DNA from: the human T2T-CHM13v2.0 reference genome, Homo sapiens
Length of the DNA: 64,000 nucleotides
Direction: 5' to 3' (one strand)
Assembly (NCBI RefSeq): GCF_009914755.1
Contig: NC_060933.1
Shown: in pieces, positions 886 through 58,700 of the stretch
Numbering within the stretch: position 1 is the first letter of the stretch
How the letters are laid out: each line of letters starts with the position of its first letter
Program-made: the position numbers and the translations under genes
The notes under the pieces: generated by a model
What the model was told of the DNA's origin: nothing
Databases searched by the model: none
Seen by the model: the letters and a program-made list of their open reading frames with translations, nothing else

Positions 886-2096
886 TTTTAACTTTTTTTA
901 TCAAACGAATTTTCTTGTAATTTCTAGCACAATTATATTTATAACTTAGGAAGTAATCTTCTCCTTGAACCAAGCACAGGATACCTTCAGCTATCTATCT
1001 GTCCCACACATTGCAGTTTCAGCCTATATATAATTTTAATAGCTACCAAATATCAGGATAAAATTATCCTGGCTATACTTGCCACAGAACCCATGAACTT
1101 ACACTGTAGCCCAACTTCCCTTCCTGTTCTTCAGACTAAATCTACTGAAAAACACACAACCAATCAAAATCGTATGCCCTTTTCTCTCCTCTTCCCAGTA
1201 AGTAGTTGGGGCAAAAAACGGTAGGTATAGAAGAAATCGCTTGAAATACAAGAGTCAGAAAATCTGAATTTAAGTTCAGCTAAGTTCAGCTCTGCCCTGA
1301 TTATGTATTCGTGGTCAAGCCAGTCACCCTGTTTAAGTCTTACTTCTCTGTAAAAGGACGACTAAATATACCCTCTCCATCTCAGATGTGAAAAAGCGCT
1401 CTGCAAACAGCACAAGGTATAGGCCAAAGTATCCTAGTCTCTGATGGTGCTGCTCCACAGGTACAGACAAGTAGTTCAGACAAGATCCTCTCACTACCCA
1501 AACTCTTGCCTACTTGTCAACCAGCAGTATATGTGTGCAAGATGTCTGGATAAAGTTAACCCATAACCCAGGGTTAAAAGAAGGCCTTTTCTGCATGTAA
1601 GTGTCATCAGACTGGATGGGAAATATCATTCACTCTAGGTCCATCAGTAGCAACTCCAAACACTTGAGTCACCTCCCAAACAAGAAGTTGCTATTATACT
1701 CTGTAGTGGGGTAGGACACAGGGTAAGGCTTTGGGATTATAAGCTTCCAAGGTGAAGAATAATGACATAGCAAATAATCAGTGGGGCCCCATCTGATCAA
1801 TGAACTTAAATCATTTTGTCAAGACGTCCCTTCCTTTTCCTGCTTCCAGCCAATCTTAAATATTTCTTTAAACAGCTTTGTTTAGGTATAATTCACATGC
1901 AATTAAATTCGCCTGTTGTAAGTGTATAATTCAATGACTTTTATTCATTCATTTATAGACTTGTGCAAGCATCACCAAAATCTAATTTCGAACCTTTGCA
2001 TCACCCATAAAACTCCCTTTGTTCCTGTTTCCACTCCCAACTTAGCCCCCAGACAACCACTGATCTGTCTCTATACATTTGACTTCTCTGGACATT

Positions 2097-11901: not shown

Positions 11902-12210
11902 ACCAGGTGGGTTGGCGCACACCTGTAATCTCAGCACTTTGGGAGGCCAAGGCGGGCAGATCACTTGAGGTCAGGAGTTCGAGACCAGCCTGACCAACAC
12001 GGTGAAACCCTGTCTCTACTAAAAATACAAAAAATTAGCTGGGAAAGGTGGCAGGCACCTATAACCCCAGCTACTCGGGAGGCTGAGGCAGGAGAATCGC
12101 TTGAACCTTGCCTGAACCCAGGAGGCAGAGGTTGCAGTGAGCCAAGATCATGCCACTGCACTCCAGCCTGAGCAACAAAGTGAGATTCCATCTCGAAAAA
12201 AAAAAAAAAA
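11902..12210 (+). mobile_element. AluS, inserted in a probable old MLT1-type LTR remnant (~11650-12280)
   Basis: Full Alu with A-tail. Flanks (gcagccattttc, gtgtttctgttccttgc) resemble MLT1; that part is low confidence. Confidence 0.9.
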
Positions 12211-22710: not shown

Positions 22711-24974
22711 AACAGATGAAAAAGATCTTTAACACTGTATTTTCACTTTGAATCTTATTTTGCAGTTTTGATTTTCTTATGCTTACCAACAAAGCACATT
22801 CAATTTTGGTTCACAATGACTGTCGGCTCTCTTCAAAGAGAGAGGCTTATCTTTTCTTTCAGATCATATCTATGACAAATACTGGACCAAAATAAAACAA
22901 AAACAAAGTAGCTTCAGGTAAAGAGGCAAAGAGTGGTCCCGGTTGACCAAAGAGTACCCAGAAAGGGCCTCAGTTAGAACTGAGTTATTATAGCCTCAGC
23001 ATGCTAAGAATATGTGAGATATTTAGAAAAAAAAAGTTAATTTGTAAAACTATGTACAACTTTGAAGACAGTGACTTTAATCTAGGGTATCCCCCCACTA
23101 CTGATACGTTTGCCTAACACAGAAGGTTTTCTCTTTGGCAAGAGTTCAAAAAAGGAAGAGAAGAATTCCCATGTATTCCCTTGTTATCAAGCACTGAATT
23201 TAAGCAACCCCTTTCAGCTTTTTTTTAATAAAATAAAACAAATGTTTATTAAAAGTCTTTGTCTCATCTGAAAATGTTACTGCAATATTGCTCCCATGGA
23301 AAGAACAACTGCAGAACCTAACTAGCCTCAGAATTTCTTCTCATTCCTTCTTAGTCATTCATTAAAATCTCCAGACTTAGATATTCAAGCAATCCCTTCA
23401 CCCACCAGAGATAGTGGCAGACATCCAAGACTATCCAAGGACCCAACAACCGCCTTTGAATGCAACTATCTTTTCATCAACTGTAAACAAGTGCTAAACT
23501 CTCGGCTCCATAGGGAGTCCCTACCAAGTCAGTATAAACTCAAATAGGGGCAGAGGTCAAGGGGATGAGAGTTCACCCTAAGCTCTGGATCTCATACCAC
23601 CCCTACCCTGATCAAAACAATCCTTATCAGAAGGGAACTCCTCAGCAAAAGGCCACATTCAGAAGGCTTGATCTAGCAGCAATGCCACAGAATCAACTGA
23701 AGCTTTGGAAGCAGGCACTCGGAACTGTTATGAATGTGACATAGCAAAATCACTAACAGTGTTGCAGAGAAAAAGGGACATAAAGGGAGGAAACAAGGGA
23801 GATTTGTGAACTATCTTAAGTTGCTTCAGGAAAGAACTCACTTGAAAAATAGTGGAATAATCCTGAATCTGAGCCACAGAAGACAACTCGGGAACCTATT
23901 CCACAATGAATCATTCTACTTTGTGTCCAAAACCACCCTAATACACGCAGAAGAGGCCCAGATGACACTTCAAAAATAGTCTTCATTCTTTTACACAAAA
24001 ACCCTGATTATATATGTTATAAATCATTACACTGCCTTAAAGTCTTCCACCATCAGCATTTGAGATCTGTCACAATCAAGACAGCTAGAGACAGGATAGA
24101 AATTAATTATTTAATAAAGCAGGGGCTCTGAAGTCTCAGATACTTCACTAGGTACTTTGGGGTGAGTCATTTAATCTCTTCAGGCCTCATAGTTCTCATC
24201 TGTAAGATGGGGATTGTATCTTTTTAAACAAATCTTATGAATGCTTAATAAAAAATGCATGTGAAACATTCTGTGCATAGTAAATATTAGCTATCCTTAC
24301 TATTATGTGGTAAAAGCCACATCATATTTTGTGTCTGCCTTCCTGATTAAACCAGAGTCCTTTCTGGGCAAGAACTATGTCTCAGCTTGGCACCCAAAGT
24401 AGGGAGGGAGAAAAGAACAATAAGTGCGTTAAATGAACTAAGTATTACCAAGTCAAACTTAAAATCAGATCATTTTATATGCTATAATCCTTCTCACACT
24501 TACTGAATATACGCAAAGTGCCTGGCACACAAGGAATACCAAATACACAAGTAAATGGTAATTTCCTTTTCTTCCTTCATCTGTAACATTCAGTCTTAAG
24601 TTCACTCTCTGCAGACATTTGGGCTTATATAAACTACTTTCTGAGACCAAAAATTGTGACACATAGTTTGACAACTAGGAATAAATCCATTAGAACATGT
24701 GACAGAATACTGGAATTTTAGGGTACGCTAGCTGAGATGTACACATTTCTCTTTTGTAGCTGGAAGAATCCACAAAAAAATATCTTTGGGATCCCAAGTC
24801 ACGTGACAGTTGAATGCAAAGCCAGAGCAAGTTCGTGGTGCCAGGCTTTCTTTTTATCTTGCCTATTTTTTATCTTGTTTTTTTCATCTTGCCTGTTCAT
24901 CCCACCAACACATGTAGAACTCTCCTTGGTGGGCATCTACCAATATGGCAAGATATACCAAAATTTAATTTACG

Positions 24975-25778: not shown

Positions 25779-26179
25779 ACTATTTACTTGAAGCAGTAAC
25801 TTACACCTGCCAACACCTTTGTGTCATTAAGAAACACAGGCCAGCTTAATTGAATAAAACAGTTTCAACAGCCCATTAGTGCAGAAAGACTGAGAATTTC
25901 AACATTATACTACATAGCCTAGAACAGTATACACTTAATAGTATTTACCATTTGTCAAGCACTATTCCAAACTTTAAATATATTACATTCACTTAATCCT
26001 CACAGCAACCCAATAAAATAAAAATACATTTTACTGTCCTCATTTCATAGATGAGAAAAGGAAGGCAGAGAGTTTAAGTAATTTAACCAAGATTACAGTG
26101 AAGCCAAGTTGAATCCAAGCAATCTTGAGCCAGAGTCTATGTTCTTAATTATAAGAGCAGCTTTGGCTTGCATAAAAAA

Positions 26180-26620
26180 ACTAAAGCACTCATTCGAAAT
26201 GCAGACAAAAAATTTATACACAAACGTGTTCACTGTGGCATTATTTATGATGCAGAAAAAACTGAAAATCTAAATGCTCAACAATAGGAGGATGGTTAAA
26301 TAAATCATGATAAAGCTATTTACTTATTTAATGAAATATCCTTCCGTTAAAAACATTTGTGAAAATCGTTTCATGACTTGGGACAATGTTCCCAATGTAA
26401 TACAGAGTGGGGGAAAACAAACAGGATACAAAAATTGCATATATAGTATAGATTCCTAATTATGTAAAAGATGAGCTCGGACACAACCTGGAAGGACATA
26501 CTCTCAAACGTGAAGCAATGGTTATTTCTAGGTGGTGGGATTAGAGATGCTTCTATTTTCTTTTAGTGTTTTCCATAGTGAACCATACATTATTCTACTA
26601 CCAGTTTAAACAAAAACAAT
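26180..26620 (+). mobile_element. L1ME-like 3' end, preceded by a minus-strand MIR (~25935-26150)
   Basis: tgttcactgtggcattattt..aacaataggaggatggttaaataaat..gttatttctaggtggtgggatta. Confidence 0.7.
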
Positions 26621-27426
26621 GTTTTTTTCTTTTAATCAAGCTACACCAAGATCCTCAACCAGCTGGTAAAAAAAGAGAAAAAAAAAAACCACACAGCTAA
26701 AAAGCTTCTAATATGTCTAACTTCAAGCAGGTACTTTCCTTGGGATTATATCCTTTGAACATCAGACAACATAGCACATACCAAAAAAAAAAAAAAATTC
26801 AATCTTCAACTTTGGAAACTGAATTAAAGTAAGTACTTTCAATTTTGGTCAATGTTTACTCTCAGTGTAATTACTTGTAGGATTATGTTACAAGAGGAGA
26901 AATGGACTTCATTATATGTAAGCCAAAAATTCAGGAACAGTATTTCTGAAATAGATAATAAGAGACAAAAAGTTTGGCGAGGAAGAACAGCTGTTGCTAA
27001 TCCAACTATTTACCCTTTGACCCTCTATCTGGCCAGTAACCGAACACTATCAACTGTTTCCCTTTATTATGTGCTGTTTACAATCCCTGAGAGGCATGAA
27101 AGGAATTAATAATTTAGCCTAGAAAGCTGACAGCCTTTATTGGGAAGCCCCTTGTCTATGGGACAGAAATCAGAGCAAGTCCTGAAGTCACAGGTCCCTT
27201 TACTGTTCCTGTTTTATAGCCTAACTGGCCCCCAAACATAAATCAATTATTTCTCCTGTTTTAAGCAACAATGACTTCTATTCTCTAACTTCCCTTGTAT
27301 CAAGTCGGTCCTTGTTCTCTTGAGTTTTACAGCTACACGGTAAACACGACGGCCGAGGAAAAAACTCGGGGAGCAGGGCAGACAGGGGTTATTTGGAAAC
27401 AGAAGCACAGAAAGGTTATGCTGTTT

Positions 27427-27454
27427 TGAACTTCTCTTGACCTTTGACTGCCCT
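27427..27454 (-). promoter_or_regulatory. Composite nuclear receptor element: AGGGCA-N5-AGGTCA-N5-AGTTCA (double DR5 RARE) with overlapping DR1
   Basis: Plus strand TGAACT tctct TGACCT ttgac TGCCCT. The AGGTCA-agaga-AGTTCA pair fits RGKTCA(N5)RGKTCA exactly. Function is inferred. Confidence 0.6.
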
Positions 27455-28021
27455 TGTCCCTAGCTTATGCTAATGGACATGGTACAGGGACACTTCTTGT
27501 AGAAATGAACTTAGCCTGAACCTGTGCCATAACATTGGACTCCAGGAAGTCCAGGAATCATAGGAAGGCAGCCAGAGTGTGAACAGCTGCCCATATTCTG
27601 AGCATGGCTGCCCATCTGCTTTATCACACTAAAGGTATTTAAAAAAAAAGAAAAAAAAAAAGCCAAGCCATTTAATTGGACAAAGTCAGTCTTTCCTCAA
27701 CTAGTTCCCACATGACACCTGCTGTCCCAAACCTGCTGCCTACAACCACTGCCATGCACAACTGGAAATTAGCAACGAAGTATTTCCTGTTCCAAAATAA
27801 GGGAGTGTGAGCAGGCTTTCCTATCAGGAATCTGGGGAATGGGGGGCAATATTTGGGCCTCCAAATTCCAAAGATACAACACAAGGAAATCTGTAATATC
27901 CTCAAAAGTCATGCGGGGCTCGGCCTGGTAATCCCAGCACTTTGGGAGACCAAGGCAGGAGGATCACTTGAGCCCAGGAGTTTGAGACCAGCCTGGAGAG
28001 CATGGCAAAAATTCGTCTCTA

Positions 28022-31667
<3,646 letters not shown>

Positions 31668-35555: not shown

Positions 35556-35597
35556 TAGTGCCTGGGTCAAGCTCTGCCAATTCATCCTGACAGAAAC
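35556..35597 (-). CDS. NR6A1: NR6A1 (germ cell nuclear factor, GCNF) coding exon 2, 42 nt, phase 1-1
   Basis: Minus strand reads ttttcctattgttttctctttag|GTTTCTGTCAGGATGAATTGGCAGAGCTTGACCCAGGCACTA|gtaagt and translates (G)FCQDELAELDPGT(I). This matches the recalled NR6A1 N-terminus PPPPRNGFCQDELAELDPGTISV. Canonical AG/GT sites and a long polypyrimidine tract. Confidence 0.97.
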
Positions 35598-55765: not shown

Positions 55766-58700
55766 TTTAGCAGAGTAGTGGTTAGTAGAAGGTTATTTTC
55801 AACTCTAAGCCTCAGTTTACTCATCTATAATAAGGGAATATCACCACCTATCCAAAGAAAAGTTATGGAAAGGATTACATGAGTTAGTTTAGCTCTGTGC
55901 CTAGTGCTGAGTGTTCAACAACTACTTGTTCCCTTCCCTTTTAAGGATATTACCAGAAAACCTTTTTAGAGACCTCCAGAGAGAGACTTTGGGTAGGGGA
56001 TGGGGATGCTGGGCTTCCTGTATATCAGAGACAGGAGCATTTGCTCTGGTTCTAATACTTCCCACTAAGAACCTCCAGGGACCTAGCCTTGCTTTTACCC
56101 TGATAAAGCTGCAGTCTACTCTCCTAAGGCTCATAATTCTACTTACAAGCAAGACTGGGAATAAAGTGCTACAGAAAAGGGGCACATATCTTAAATCACT
56201 GAGAAGTCAAACCCTAAAGGGCACCAAGGAAGGAAGGACCATTTTATAACAAGTCCAAGCCAAAATAAAGTATTTCATTTGGGCAAATTCAACAACTCTG
56301 TAATGGAAAAGAAAGTCACTAGGTGGTTCATAACCAGCCTTTATCACCTGATATTGTCAAACTAGAGCCCACAGGGGAGAAAAACCTTGGGAGGAGGAGT
56401 TCCAACTCAGAGTAGGAATGCTTCAAGAAAAGGAACACCAACTGAGTACTTACTACAGTCCCACCATTGTGAGTAATAGGCACTTTATTTTACATATATT
56501 GCCAAATTTTTCCAAACCTATATGAGATAATTCCAAGTCAACTGACCAAATTGCCAAATCTCCAAATAGCCAATTCTCTAAATTTGTCAAAAATTTGTTT
56601 TAAATATTTGGACAGTTTATAAAAATTCATATTGATGAGACAGTTAATTACCTTTTAAGGATTTCTGCCAAGTCAGAACTGACCGTTGGAATACCAGCAT
56701 TTTTAAGATGTTCAATTTGTCTCTACACTGCAGCTGGAGAGAGCTGAAGCAGAGAGGACCTCTGCTGGTAGAAATATACATCCTTGTCTGGGCTGCAGGG
56801 CATGGGGGAGAAATGATGTATAGGAAACGGGAAAAACAAAAAGGAAAAAAATGGTGGGGAGCATTTAAGAAAAACGAGATGAACAACGGGTTCTGTAAGG
56901 TCTACAGATTAGATTCAGCAAACTGTCTTTTATTGAATGGAATACTGGGTAAACTGAACATCTGGGAAACTGGTTTTCAATGACTTGGATTGTGGTAAAC
57001 TGGTCTGCTGTACCTATGAGATCGATGATATTAACATTACTTACAGATAAGGAAATTAACTCAGAAACTTTTGTAAAGTAATACAGCTACATTCCAGGTT
57101 TTCCATAAACTACCTCATTTCATTCTCCAATAATCAATGTGGTGATTCCACATCCTTTTACCACCCTCCACCCAGTATCTCCACCCCCCTTCCACTCAAC
57201 TGTCAAAAAAATACATTAAAAAATCACAAGAATAGACAGGATTTAAACCCAAGTCTAACGTTAAAGCTCAGGCTCTAATGCACCTAGTTATCACTACATC
57301 CTACCAATTTGCTGAAATAATTTTTAACCCCTGCCCTCCCACTGCTGAAGTTTGTCTACCATTACTACAGTAACTCCTTTCTGCAAAGATCTGCTTTTCA
57401 GAGGTTGAGTCACATTACCGTAAGACTAAATGGAAATATTTCAGGCAAAAGAGTATTTCAGAGATCTCATTTTATTTACCCTGAACAACCTTATTGCTCA
57501 CACGATTTCAGATCAAATCAGAACTGAAATTGCTTGAGAACTTCCATTAGAGACTCTCAGACTGGCAATCCCTGCTGTGTATTAACAACTTTTTCCGTTC
57601 ATTATGTTGGCTTCATTCACAAGCACACTGGCATGTAATTTCATTATTGTGATCTAAGAGTGACTAGGTTAGTCTCATTAAATAAATGTAAAAACTAAAA
57701 TAATCCTAAAATCTGCAAGATCTATGTAACACCTTACCGCTTGCTCAAACTATCTGCTTTACTGCTGGACTCTTCAGGGATTTATCACATTTATGATGCT
57801 GGAAGACATGTCTTATCTGACCTACTGACACATAAAACCTAACTTTTCTTATAGCAACAATGTCAAGGTCCTTTCTATCAATAAGATAGTACTTCAAGGC
57901 TCTCTAAACAGCTGCGAATATATTCTACCCTTTTGGTAAGCAGAAAAGTTCTTTATTCATAGAACTTAAGATGTGGCTCACATATAAAGCATTTTTAAAA
58001 CATTAATATTTTTACTTTTACACTGACTGAGTATAATCAGAAACTTTCACTAAGAAAATTCCCACTGTGTAAAATATTTTAAGAATCAATTAAACTGTTA
58101 CTTTTAAAAAAGTGTTAAATATTTGTTCTGATTCCCCACTGGGTTCAAAAACCTCTTTGATGTTAAGATGGGGAAAAGATAGATCTTTTCAGCAAATCTG
58201 AATAGCACAAAATGACACTTTGAAAAATGCCACCCTCTCTTAAATCTTTTCAAGTACATATTTTAAATGATCAACAAATAGATGACAAACTTAATTATTT
58301 TTGTAGCCCATATTAGGCTTCCCTTTGCACTTTAGTAGTACCTCTTATTAATTATTTCTGATCTTCAATGTACACCCAAGGCTACGCTTAATGTTTTAGC
58401 AAATAGAATACCATTCTTTTGAAATTGACAAAAGCTATAAATTTAACTCAAGACAGCTTTTGTAGTTCAGTTAGATTCAAGGTCATCTCAAGGCTTTTAA
58501 TTACTAACCAGGAATTGAGGAGGTTTGTACCCGCTATAGTTGAGAGAAAGAGCAGCTGGCTTATTCATTTTCTTATTAAAGAGCATTATAAAACCTATCT
58601 TGGCAAATTACAAGTTTCTGATCACCAGTGGTGAGCACAAAGCAGCAAAGCAAATGATCTTCAAATGTTCATGTTTACTTTCAATCAACATAAACTTTAA

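What the first reader, a model, noticed from the sequence alone, without database searches (positions are those of the whole stretch)
27300..27570. Chained double-DR5 RARE in a CpG-retaining patch: candidate retinoic-acid enhancer of NR6A1
Seen: three half-sites at 11-bp period on the minus strand, AGGGCA-gtcaa-AGGTCA-agaga-AGTTCA (27454-27427), one pair a perfect DR5, plus overlapping DR1 CAGTCA-a-AGGTCA. Nearby are FOX motif GTAAACA (27340-27346), six CpGs in 27306-27369 in CpG-poor surroundings, and ETS-like ccaggaagt (27542-27550). Established: RAR/RXR binds DR5, and NR6A1 is induced by retinoic acid in EC/ES cells. Inference: a direct RA-response enhancer for NR6A1 and/or MIR181A2HG.
Basis: partly seen in the sequence, partly recalled or inferred. 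Interest (0 to 1): 0.72.

Follow-up and report, generated by a model that had tools for sequence, protein, structure and literature searches.

The report
Twin retinoic-acid switch inside NR6A1
Inside the human developmental gene NR6A1 sit two perfect vitamin-A (retinoic acid) receptor binding words only 62 bases apart, a rare pairing that likely marks an as yet untested switch helping retinoic acid turn this gene on.

Summary
The motifs are present as described. These are the only strict DR5s outside Alu-type sequence in the 64 kb window. Given one DR5, a second within ±100 bp has probability about 4e-4. Genome-wide, 74 same-strand pairs (gap 14-106 bp) fall at 19 places, nearly all tandem or low-complexity repeats; only this site and one on chr6 are ordinary sequence (0.5 expected by chance). 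The element is single-copy, in NR6A1 intron 2, 46 kb below the TSS. NR6A1 is a known early RA-response gene, and I found no mapped RARE for it. Zebrafish nr6a1b has a very strong intragenic RARa peak (orthology untested). Against: mouse F9 RAR/RXR data show no peak at the estimated orthologous position but one 2.1-2.6 kb below the TSS; human intron 1 has a perfect DR2 there; Nr6a1 is absent from the RA-regulated-mark tables for mouse E8.5 trunk. FOX, ETS and DR1 words are weak, and the CpG patch lies beside the DR5s. Verdict: likely a clustered-RARE enhancer of NR6A1 (0.5); new member of a known kind; binding, conservation and function untested.

The parts
27427..27443 (-). DR5-A, strict consensus AGGTCA-agaga-AGTTCA
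27438..27454 (-). Chained imperfect DR5 AGGGCA-gtcaa-AGGTCA sharing the AGGTCA half-site with DR5-A (1 mismatch)
   Evidence: 40 such triples genome-wide
27506..27522 (-).
27455..27460 (-). GGGACA half-site (1 mismatch) abutting AGGGCA: weak DR0-like extension
27438..27450 (-). CAGTCA-a-AGGTCA 'DR1': weak (5' half has 2 mismatches); contains CAAAGGTCA (HNF4-type label recalled)
27306..27368 (.). Six-CpG patch (local o/e about 1.0) flanking the DR5 cluster, not containing it
27340..27346 (+). GTAAACA forkhead-type word inside the CpG patch; weak evidence alone
27536..27553 (+). TGGACT-ccagga-AGTCCA everted pair of 1-mismatch half-sites overlapping the ETS-like ccaggaagt (27542-27550); weak
35556..35597 (-). 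NR6A1 exon 2 (42 bp, ag/gt flanks); places the element in intron 2, 8.0 kb below the donor (context only)
   Evidence: and the hub's gene table

Best explanation
Two perfect DR5 elements and a chained imperfect third lie within 96 bp of unique sequence in NR6A1 intron 2, and they likely form a clustered retinoic acid response enhancer where RXR/RAR dimers would bind and, with retinoic acid, help switch on NR6A1. Shown: the motifs, their rarity, single-copy status and position (46 kb below the TSS). From established receptor biology: RXR binds the 5' and RAR the 3' half-site of a DR5 cooperatively (PMC7515732 passages); ligand swaps corepressors for coactivators. Inferred: one dimer on DR5-A (or on the overlapping chained DR5, which shares a half-site and is an alternative register) and one on DR5-B; the adjacent CpG/forkhead patch may help keep the site accessible; the enhancer would act on the NR6A1 promoter together with a proximal intron-1 DR2, and probably only in some cell types, since mouse F9 cells show no peak there.
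For: Only 3 strict DR5 in 64 kb; the third (12118) lies in Alu-type sequence. Of 74 same-strand pair matches with gap 14-106 (24+34+16) at 19 places, I checked 17 (the other two are copies of the chrY locus): 12 of 17 overlap a TRF repeat, 3 are half-site-rich low-complexity stretches, and 2 (this one and chr6:54.34 Mb) are ordinary sequence. The DR3 control at gap 45-75 gave 10 matches, all looking like repeated units by eye. Single copy by DNA search; flanks of the two DR5s share only 14 of 50 bases, so not a recent duplication. NR6A1 is an early RA-response gene in EC cells, mouse and human ES cells and Xenopus. In zebrafish, nr6a1b rises 12.7-fold with RA, falls about 38-fold with BMS493, and has an RARa peak scoring 1288 inside the gene 16.8 kb below the TSS, on a par with hoxb4a (1284) and skap1 (1362-1573).
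Against: In the F9 RAR/RXR table (9,956 rows held of 13,791 regions; the chr2 rows appear to lie within the held part) no chr2 peak starts or ends in 38.71-38.77 Mb; length scaling puts the orthologous spot near 38.746 Mb. A peak does lie at 38,780,617-38,781,117, 2.1-2.6 kb below the TSS, and human intron 1 has a perfect DR2 1.45 kb below the TSS. Nr6a1 was not found in the 4 supplementary files of the Aldh1a2-/- E8.5 trunk study. nr6a1 appeared in only 4 of 9 zebrafish supplementary files, and none of those hits was in the conserved-site table. None of the RefSeq enhancers listed by the hub covers the site. About 0.5 such pairs are expected genome-wide by chance, so 2 observed is not itself significant. 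Wnt/FGF alone induce Nr6a1 80- to 175-fold. Conservation was not testable.
Confidence: 0.5

Rival explanations
1. The DR5s bind RXR/RAR in some cells but are redundant or minor; RA induction of NR6A1 runs mainly through the TSS-proximal intron-1 site (human DR2 at +1.45 kb).
For: Mouse F9 RAR/RXR peak 2.1-2.6 kb below the TSS; perfect human DR2 at window coordinate 72120, outside the window; a zebrafish peak at +1.8 kb; RARE redundancy described as possibly common.
Against: The zebrafish proximal peak is weak (72) beside the intragenic one (1288); F9 induction is modest, log2FC about 1.3 at 6-12 h. Orthology of the human DR2 to the mouse peak is not shown.
Confidence: 0.2
2. A chance cluster of half-sites with no regulatory role.
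For: About 0.5 such pairs expected genome-wide, 2 seen in ordinary sequence; strict DR5s are no commoner than the reversed-pattern control (5,867 vs 8,318); no F9 peak; no RefSeq element listed here.
Against: It would have to coincide with one of only 40 triples (about 0.015 expected to have a second DR5 nearby), with a known early RA-response gene, and with a CpG-retaining patch next door.
Confidence: 0.15
3. A real nuclear-receptor element used mainly by other receptors (COUP-TF, HNF4, TR2/TR4-type), or as a silencer, or acting on MIR181A2HG/miR-181a-2/b-2 rather than NR6A1.
For: Contains CAAAGGTCA and weak DR0/DR1/everted arrangements; RARE silencers exist; the element lies 26.6 kb past the annotated 3' end of MIR181A2HG.
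Against: Both perfect pairs have 5-bp spacing, the RXR/RAR geometry; no TCAAGGTCA-type GCNF site at the locus; the MIR181A2HG start is farther away (66.7 kb vs 46.0 kb), and the mouse host gene responds to TGF-beta while Nr6a1 hardly does.
Confidence: 0.15

Closest known systems
Canonical DR5 RARE (Rarb2 DR5; RXR 5', RAR 3')
   Same: Two elements match RGKTCA-n5-RGKTCA exactly, the top motif in RAR ChIP-seq peaks and the geometry solved for RXR-RAR.
   Different: 46 kb inside the gene rather than at the 5' end; two perfect copies plus a chained third; no binding or reporter data.
Composite / multi-RARE RAR/RXR regions (Chatagnon 2015, PMC4446430)
   Same: In vivo bound regions often hold more than one RARE and share half-sites.
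   Different: Two strict DR5s this close are very rare in the human genome; no peak at the estimated mouse position in that dataset.
Zebrafish intronic RAR sites: skap1 intron-4 DR5 enhancer and nr6a1b intragenic peak (PMC8608873)
   Same: Strong intragenic RAR site in an RA-induced developmental locus; the skap1 element confers an RA response in transgenics.
   Different: Orthology of the nr6a1b peak to this human element could not be tested; only its position is analogous.
Distal multi-RARE enhancer of CYP26A1 (recalled; PMC13738024 seen only as listing and passages)
   Same: Several RAREs cooperating in a distal element of an early RA target.
   Different: That enhancer has been deleted and tested; this one has not.

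Membership tests
DR5 retinoic acid response element / RA enhancer | RGKTCA-n5-RGKTCA direct repeat | tested here: met
   Two strict matches, 27443-27427 and 27522-27506
DR5 retinoic acid response element / RA enhancer | Beyond chance and not repeat-derived | tested here: met
   caveat: the DNA search skips common words and about 0.5 pairs are expected genome-wide
DR5 retinoic acid response element / RA enhancer | RAR/RXR occupancy in cells | tested here: inconclusive
   No peak at the estimated mouse position in the F9 list; position is an estimate, one cell type; no human ChIP data reachable; Moutier 2012 not held
DR5 retinoic acid response element / RA enhancer | Linked gene is RA-induced early | tested here: met
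   PMC10909835 section 7; F9 log2FC 1.28 at 6 h and 1.29 at 12 h; zebrafish
DR5 retinoic acid response element / RA enhancer | Evolutionary conservation of half-sites and spacing | not testable with these tools
   No other vertebrate genome held; Lalevee 2011 not held
DR5 retinoic acid response element / RA enhancer | RA-dependent H3K27ac or accessibility | tested here: inconclusive
   Nr6a1 not in the mouse E8.5 trunk tables; no human data
DR5 retinoic acid response element / RA enhancer | RA-dependent reporter activity, or loss of induction on deletion | not testable with these tools
   Needs experiments
GCNF/NR6A1 extended DR0 autoregulatory site | TCAAGGTCA-type extended half-site or strict DR0 | tested here: not met
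   No such match at 26900-28000; no strict DR0 in the window
CpG island | >=200 bp, GC >50%, CpG o/e >0.6 (criteria recalled) | tested here: not met
   Patch is about 62 bp; neighbouring stretches have o/e 0-0.09

The most novel reading that the evidence does not exclude
This twin-DR5 module is the long-missing, vertebrate-conserved main retinoic acid switch of NR6A1 (counterpart of the very strong zebrafish nr6a1b intragenic RAR peak), so non-coding variants in about 100 bp could lower NR6A1 dosage and explain unsolved coloboma, vertebral or renal cases, or tune vertebral number.
Probability: 0.15. Interest if true: 0.72.

Novelty: new member of a known kind. Interest (0 to 1): 0.45.

Why it matters
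NR6A1 (GCNF) silences OCT4, times Hox expression and trunk length, and heterozygous variants cause oculo-vertebral-renal syndrome. Its induction by retinoic acid has been known since 1997-98, yet a 2024 review's section on its regulation names no RARE or enhancer. This gives a precise 100-bp target, plus a rival DR2 in intron 1, that makes the direct-regulation question testable by ChIP lookup, reporter or deletion, and a place to look for non-coding patient variants. The mechanism itself is textbook.

Tried and rejected
Repeat origin: no self-match in the window apart from poly-A, single genomic hit, no TRF repeat, not among the listed masked stretches; an old diverged repeat is not fully excluded. 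Structured RNA: 0 Rfam matches at E<=1 in 26000-29000. Local duplication of one DR5: flanks 14 of 50 identical. DR1, FOX and ETS words as support: weak. GCNF autoregulation: no extended site. Convergent DR5 pairs at gap 45-75: 0 genome-wide; other gaps and the divergent orientation were not searched. A DR6 spacer control was not obtained; DR3 served instead. Prior description: both 17-mers and their reverse complements gave 0 papers; keyword searches listed no paper mapping an NR6A1 RARE. Mahony 2011 main text has no Nr6a1/Gcnf; Reay 2018 uses only DR5s within 10 kb of a TSS. Lalevee 2011 and Moutier 2012 are not held, and their supplements could list this site. F9 table prefixes 3870, 3877 and 3878 were seen only for the first 10 places each, and the last of 40 places for 3873 was not shown. 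Earlier scan findings were not available.

Full report
Observation. The minus strand reads AGGGCA-gtcaa-AGGTCA-agaga-AGTTCA at 27454-27427, as reported. The forkhead word, six CpGs and ETS-like word are at the stated places. The window has 150 strict half-sites and only three strict DR5s. The third (12118) lies in Alu-type sequence, as do the strict DR2s by their words or context (Alu label recalled). This locus is the only place with four same-strand strict half-sites within 110 bp. The DR5s are beside the CpG patch, not in it (0 CpG in 27400-27560). The DR1, FOX and ETS words add little.

Chance. Two strict DR5s within 100 bp appeared in 0 of 150 order-2 and 0 of 150 order-5 simulations of the window. 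The genome holds 5,867 strict DR5s, so a second within ±100 bp of a given one has P about 3.8e-4. Same-strand pairs with gaps of 14-106 bp gave 74 matches at 19 places. Of 17 checked (the other two are copies of the chrY locus), 12 overlap tandem repeats, 3 are half-site-rich low-complexity stretches, and 2 are ordinary sequence: this one and chr6:54.34 Mb. About 0.5 are expected by chance, so the count of two is not significant. The weight comes from the coincidence with a chained triple (40 genome-wide) inside a known RA-response gene. The stretch is single-copy, has no Rfam match and is not a recent internal duplication.

Context. The 42-bp exon at 35556-35597 is exon 2, so the element is in intron 2, 8.0 kb below its donor, 46.0 kb below the NR6A1 TSS and 66.7 kb from the MIR181A2HG start. 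None of the RefSeq enhancers listed by the hub covers it.

Literature for. PMC10909835 (passages and section 7) calls Nr6a1 an early RA-response gene in EC cells, mouse and human ES cells and Xenopus, and names no RARE or enhancer. PMC8608873 (passages, sections 6-7, supplement search and part 1 of 5 of file 5) shows zebrafish nr6a1b up 12.7-fold with RA and down about 38-fold with BMS493. It has two RARa peaks: a weak one at +1.8 kb (72) and a strong one inside the gene at +16.8 kb (1288, like hoxb4a at 1284). That is a positional analogue only. PMC7515732 (passages) gives the cooperative RXR-5'/RAR-3' binding on DR5. PMC4446430 (passages) reports that bound regions often hold several RAREs.

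Literature against. In the F9 RAR/RXR peak table of PMC4446430 (9,956 rows held of 13,791 regions) I found no chr2 peak with a start or end in 38.71-38.77 Mb. Mouse Nr6a1 spans 38,578,890-38,783,208 in mm9, and scaling puts the orthologous position near 38.746 Mb; this is an estimate, not an alignment. A peak lies 2.1-2.6 kb below the mouse TSS, and human intron 1 carries a perfect DR2 1.45 kb below the TSS, a ready rival. F9 induction is modest (log2FC about 1.3 at 6-12 h). Nr6a1 is absent from the 4 supplementary files of PMC7259794 on RA-regulated marks in E8.5 trunk. Wnt and FGF induce Nr6a1 strongly in vitro. PMC9498520 (passages) shows the miR-181 host gene responding to TGF-beta while Nr6a1 hardly does. 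Passages of PMC12226721, PMC9755267, PMC7619239, PMC10563765, PMC2233893, PMC3091300, PMC7156344 and PMC13738024 gave no NR6A1 RARE.

Mechanism. Most likely a clustered RARE enhancer: RXR/RAR dimers on DR5-A (or the overlapping chained register) and DR5-B, converted to activators by RA, acting on the NR6A1 promoter alongside the proximal DR2 in a cell-type-restricted way (0.5). The motifs, their rarity and their location are shown; binding, activity, target and conservation are inferred. Rivals: bound but redundant (0.2), chance (0.15), another receptor or target (0.15).

Novelty. A new candidate member of a textbook class. Neither 17-mer occurs in the searchable full texts and nine keyword searches listed no mapping of an NR6A1 RARE. 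However, Lalevee 2011 and Moutier 2012 were not held, and their tables or public ChIP tracks may already include the site. Interest 0.45: ordinary mechanism, but a sharp, testable handle on how RA induces a dosage-sensitive developmental gene.

Noticed in passing
L026; G000:C9:136968120-136968133 (window coordinate 72120, outside the window): Perfect DR2 AGTTCA-aa-AGTTCA 1.45 kb below the NR6A1 TSS, plus an imperfect DR2 at +0.8 kb; candidate counterpart of the mouse F9 RAR/RXR peak near the TSS.
   Followed up: partly
window 23547-23575 (+): Composite GGGGCA-g-AGGTCA-aggggatgag-AGTTCA (imperfect DR1 plus strict DR10) inside the RefSeq enhancer 23212-23721.
   Followed up: no
window 1273-1288 (+): Strict DR4 AGTTCA-gcta-AGTTCA about 400 bp past the MIR181A2HG 3' exon; its wording closely resembles DR5-B.
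   Followed up: no
window 58464-58485 (+): AGTTCA-n10-AGGTCA whose 3' half is a TCAAGGTCA extended site (SF-1/ERR/GCNF type, label recalled) in intron 1; possible autoregulatory or NR5A site.
   Followed up: no
window 12102-12118 (-): A strict DR5 made by a short internal duplication in Alu-type sequence.
   Followed up: partly
L037; G000:C6:54336109-54336173: The only other pair of strict same-strand DR5s (31-bp gap) in ordinary-complexity sequence found genome-wide; gene context not examined.
   Followed up: no
G000:C19:41312642-41312669 (-): Another chained triple starting with AGGGCA in the genome-wide list; I recall this lying near the CYP2 cluster (not checked).
   Followed up: no
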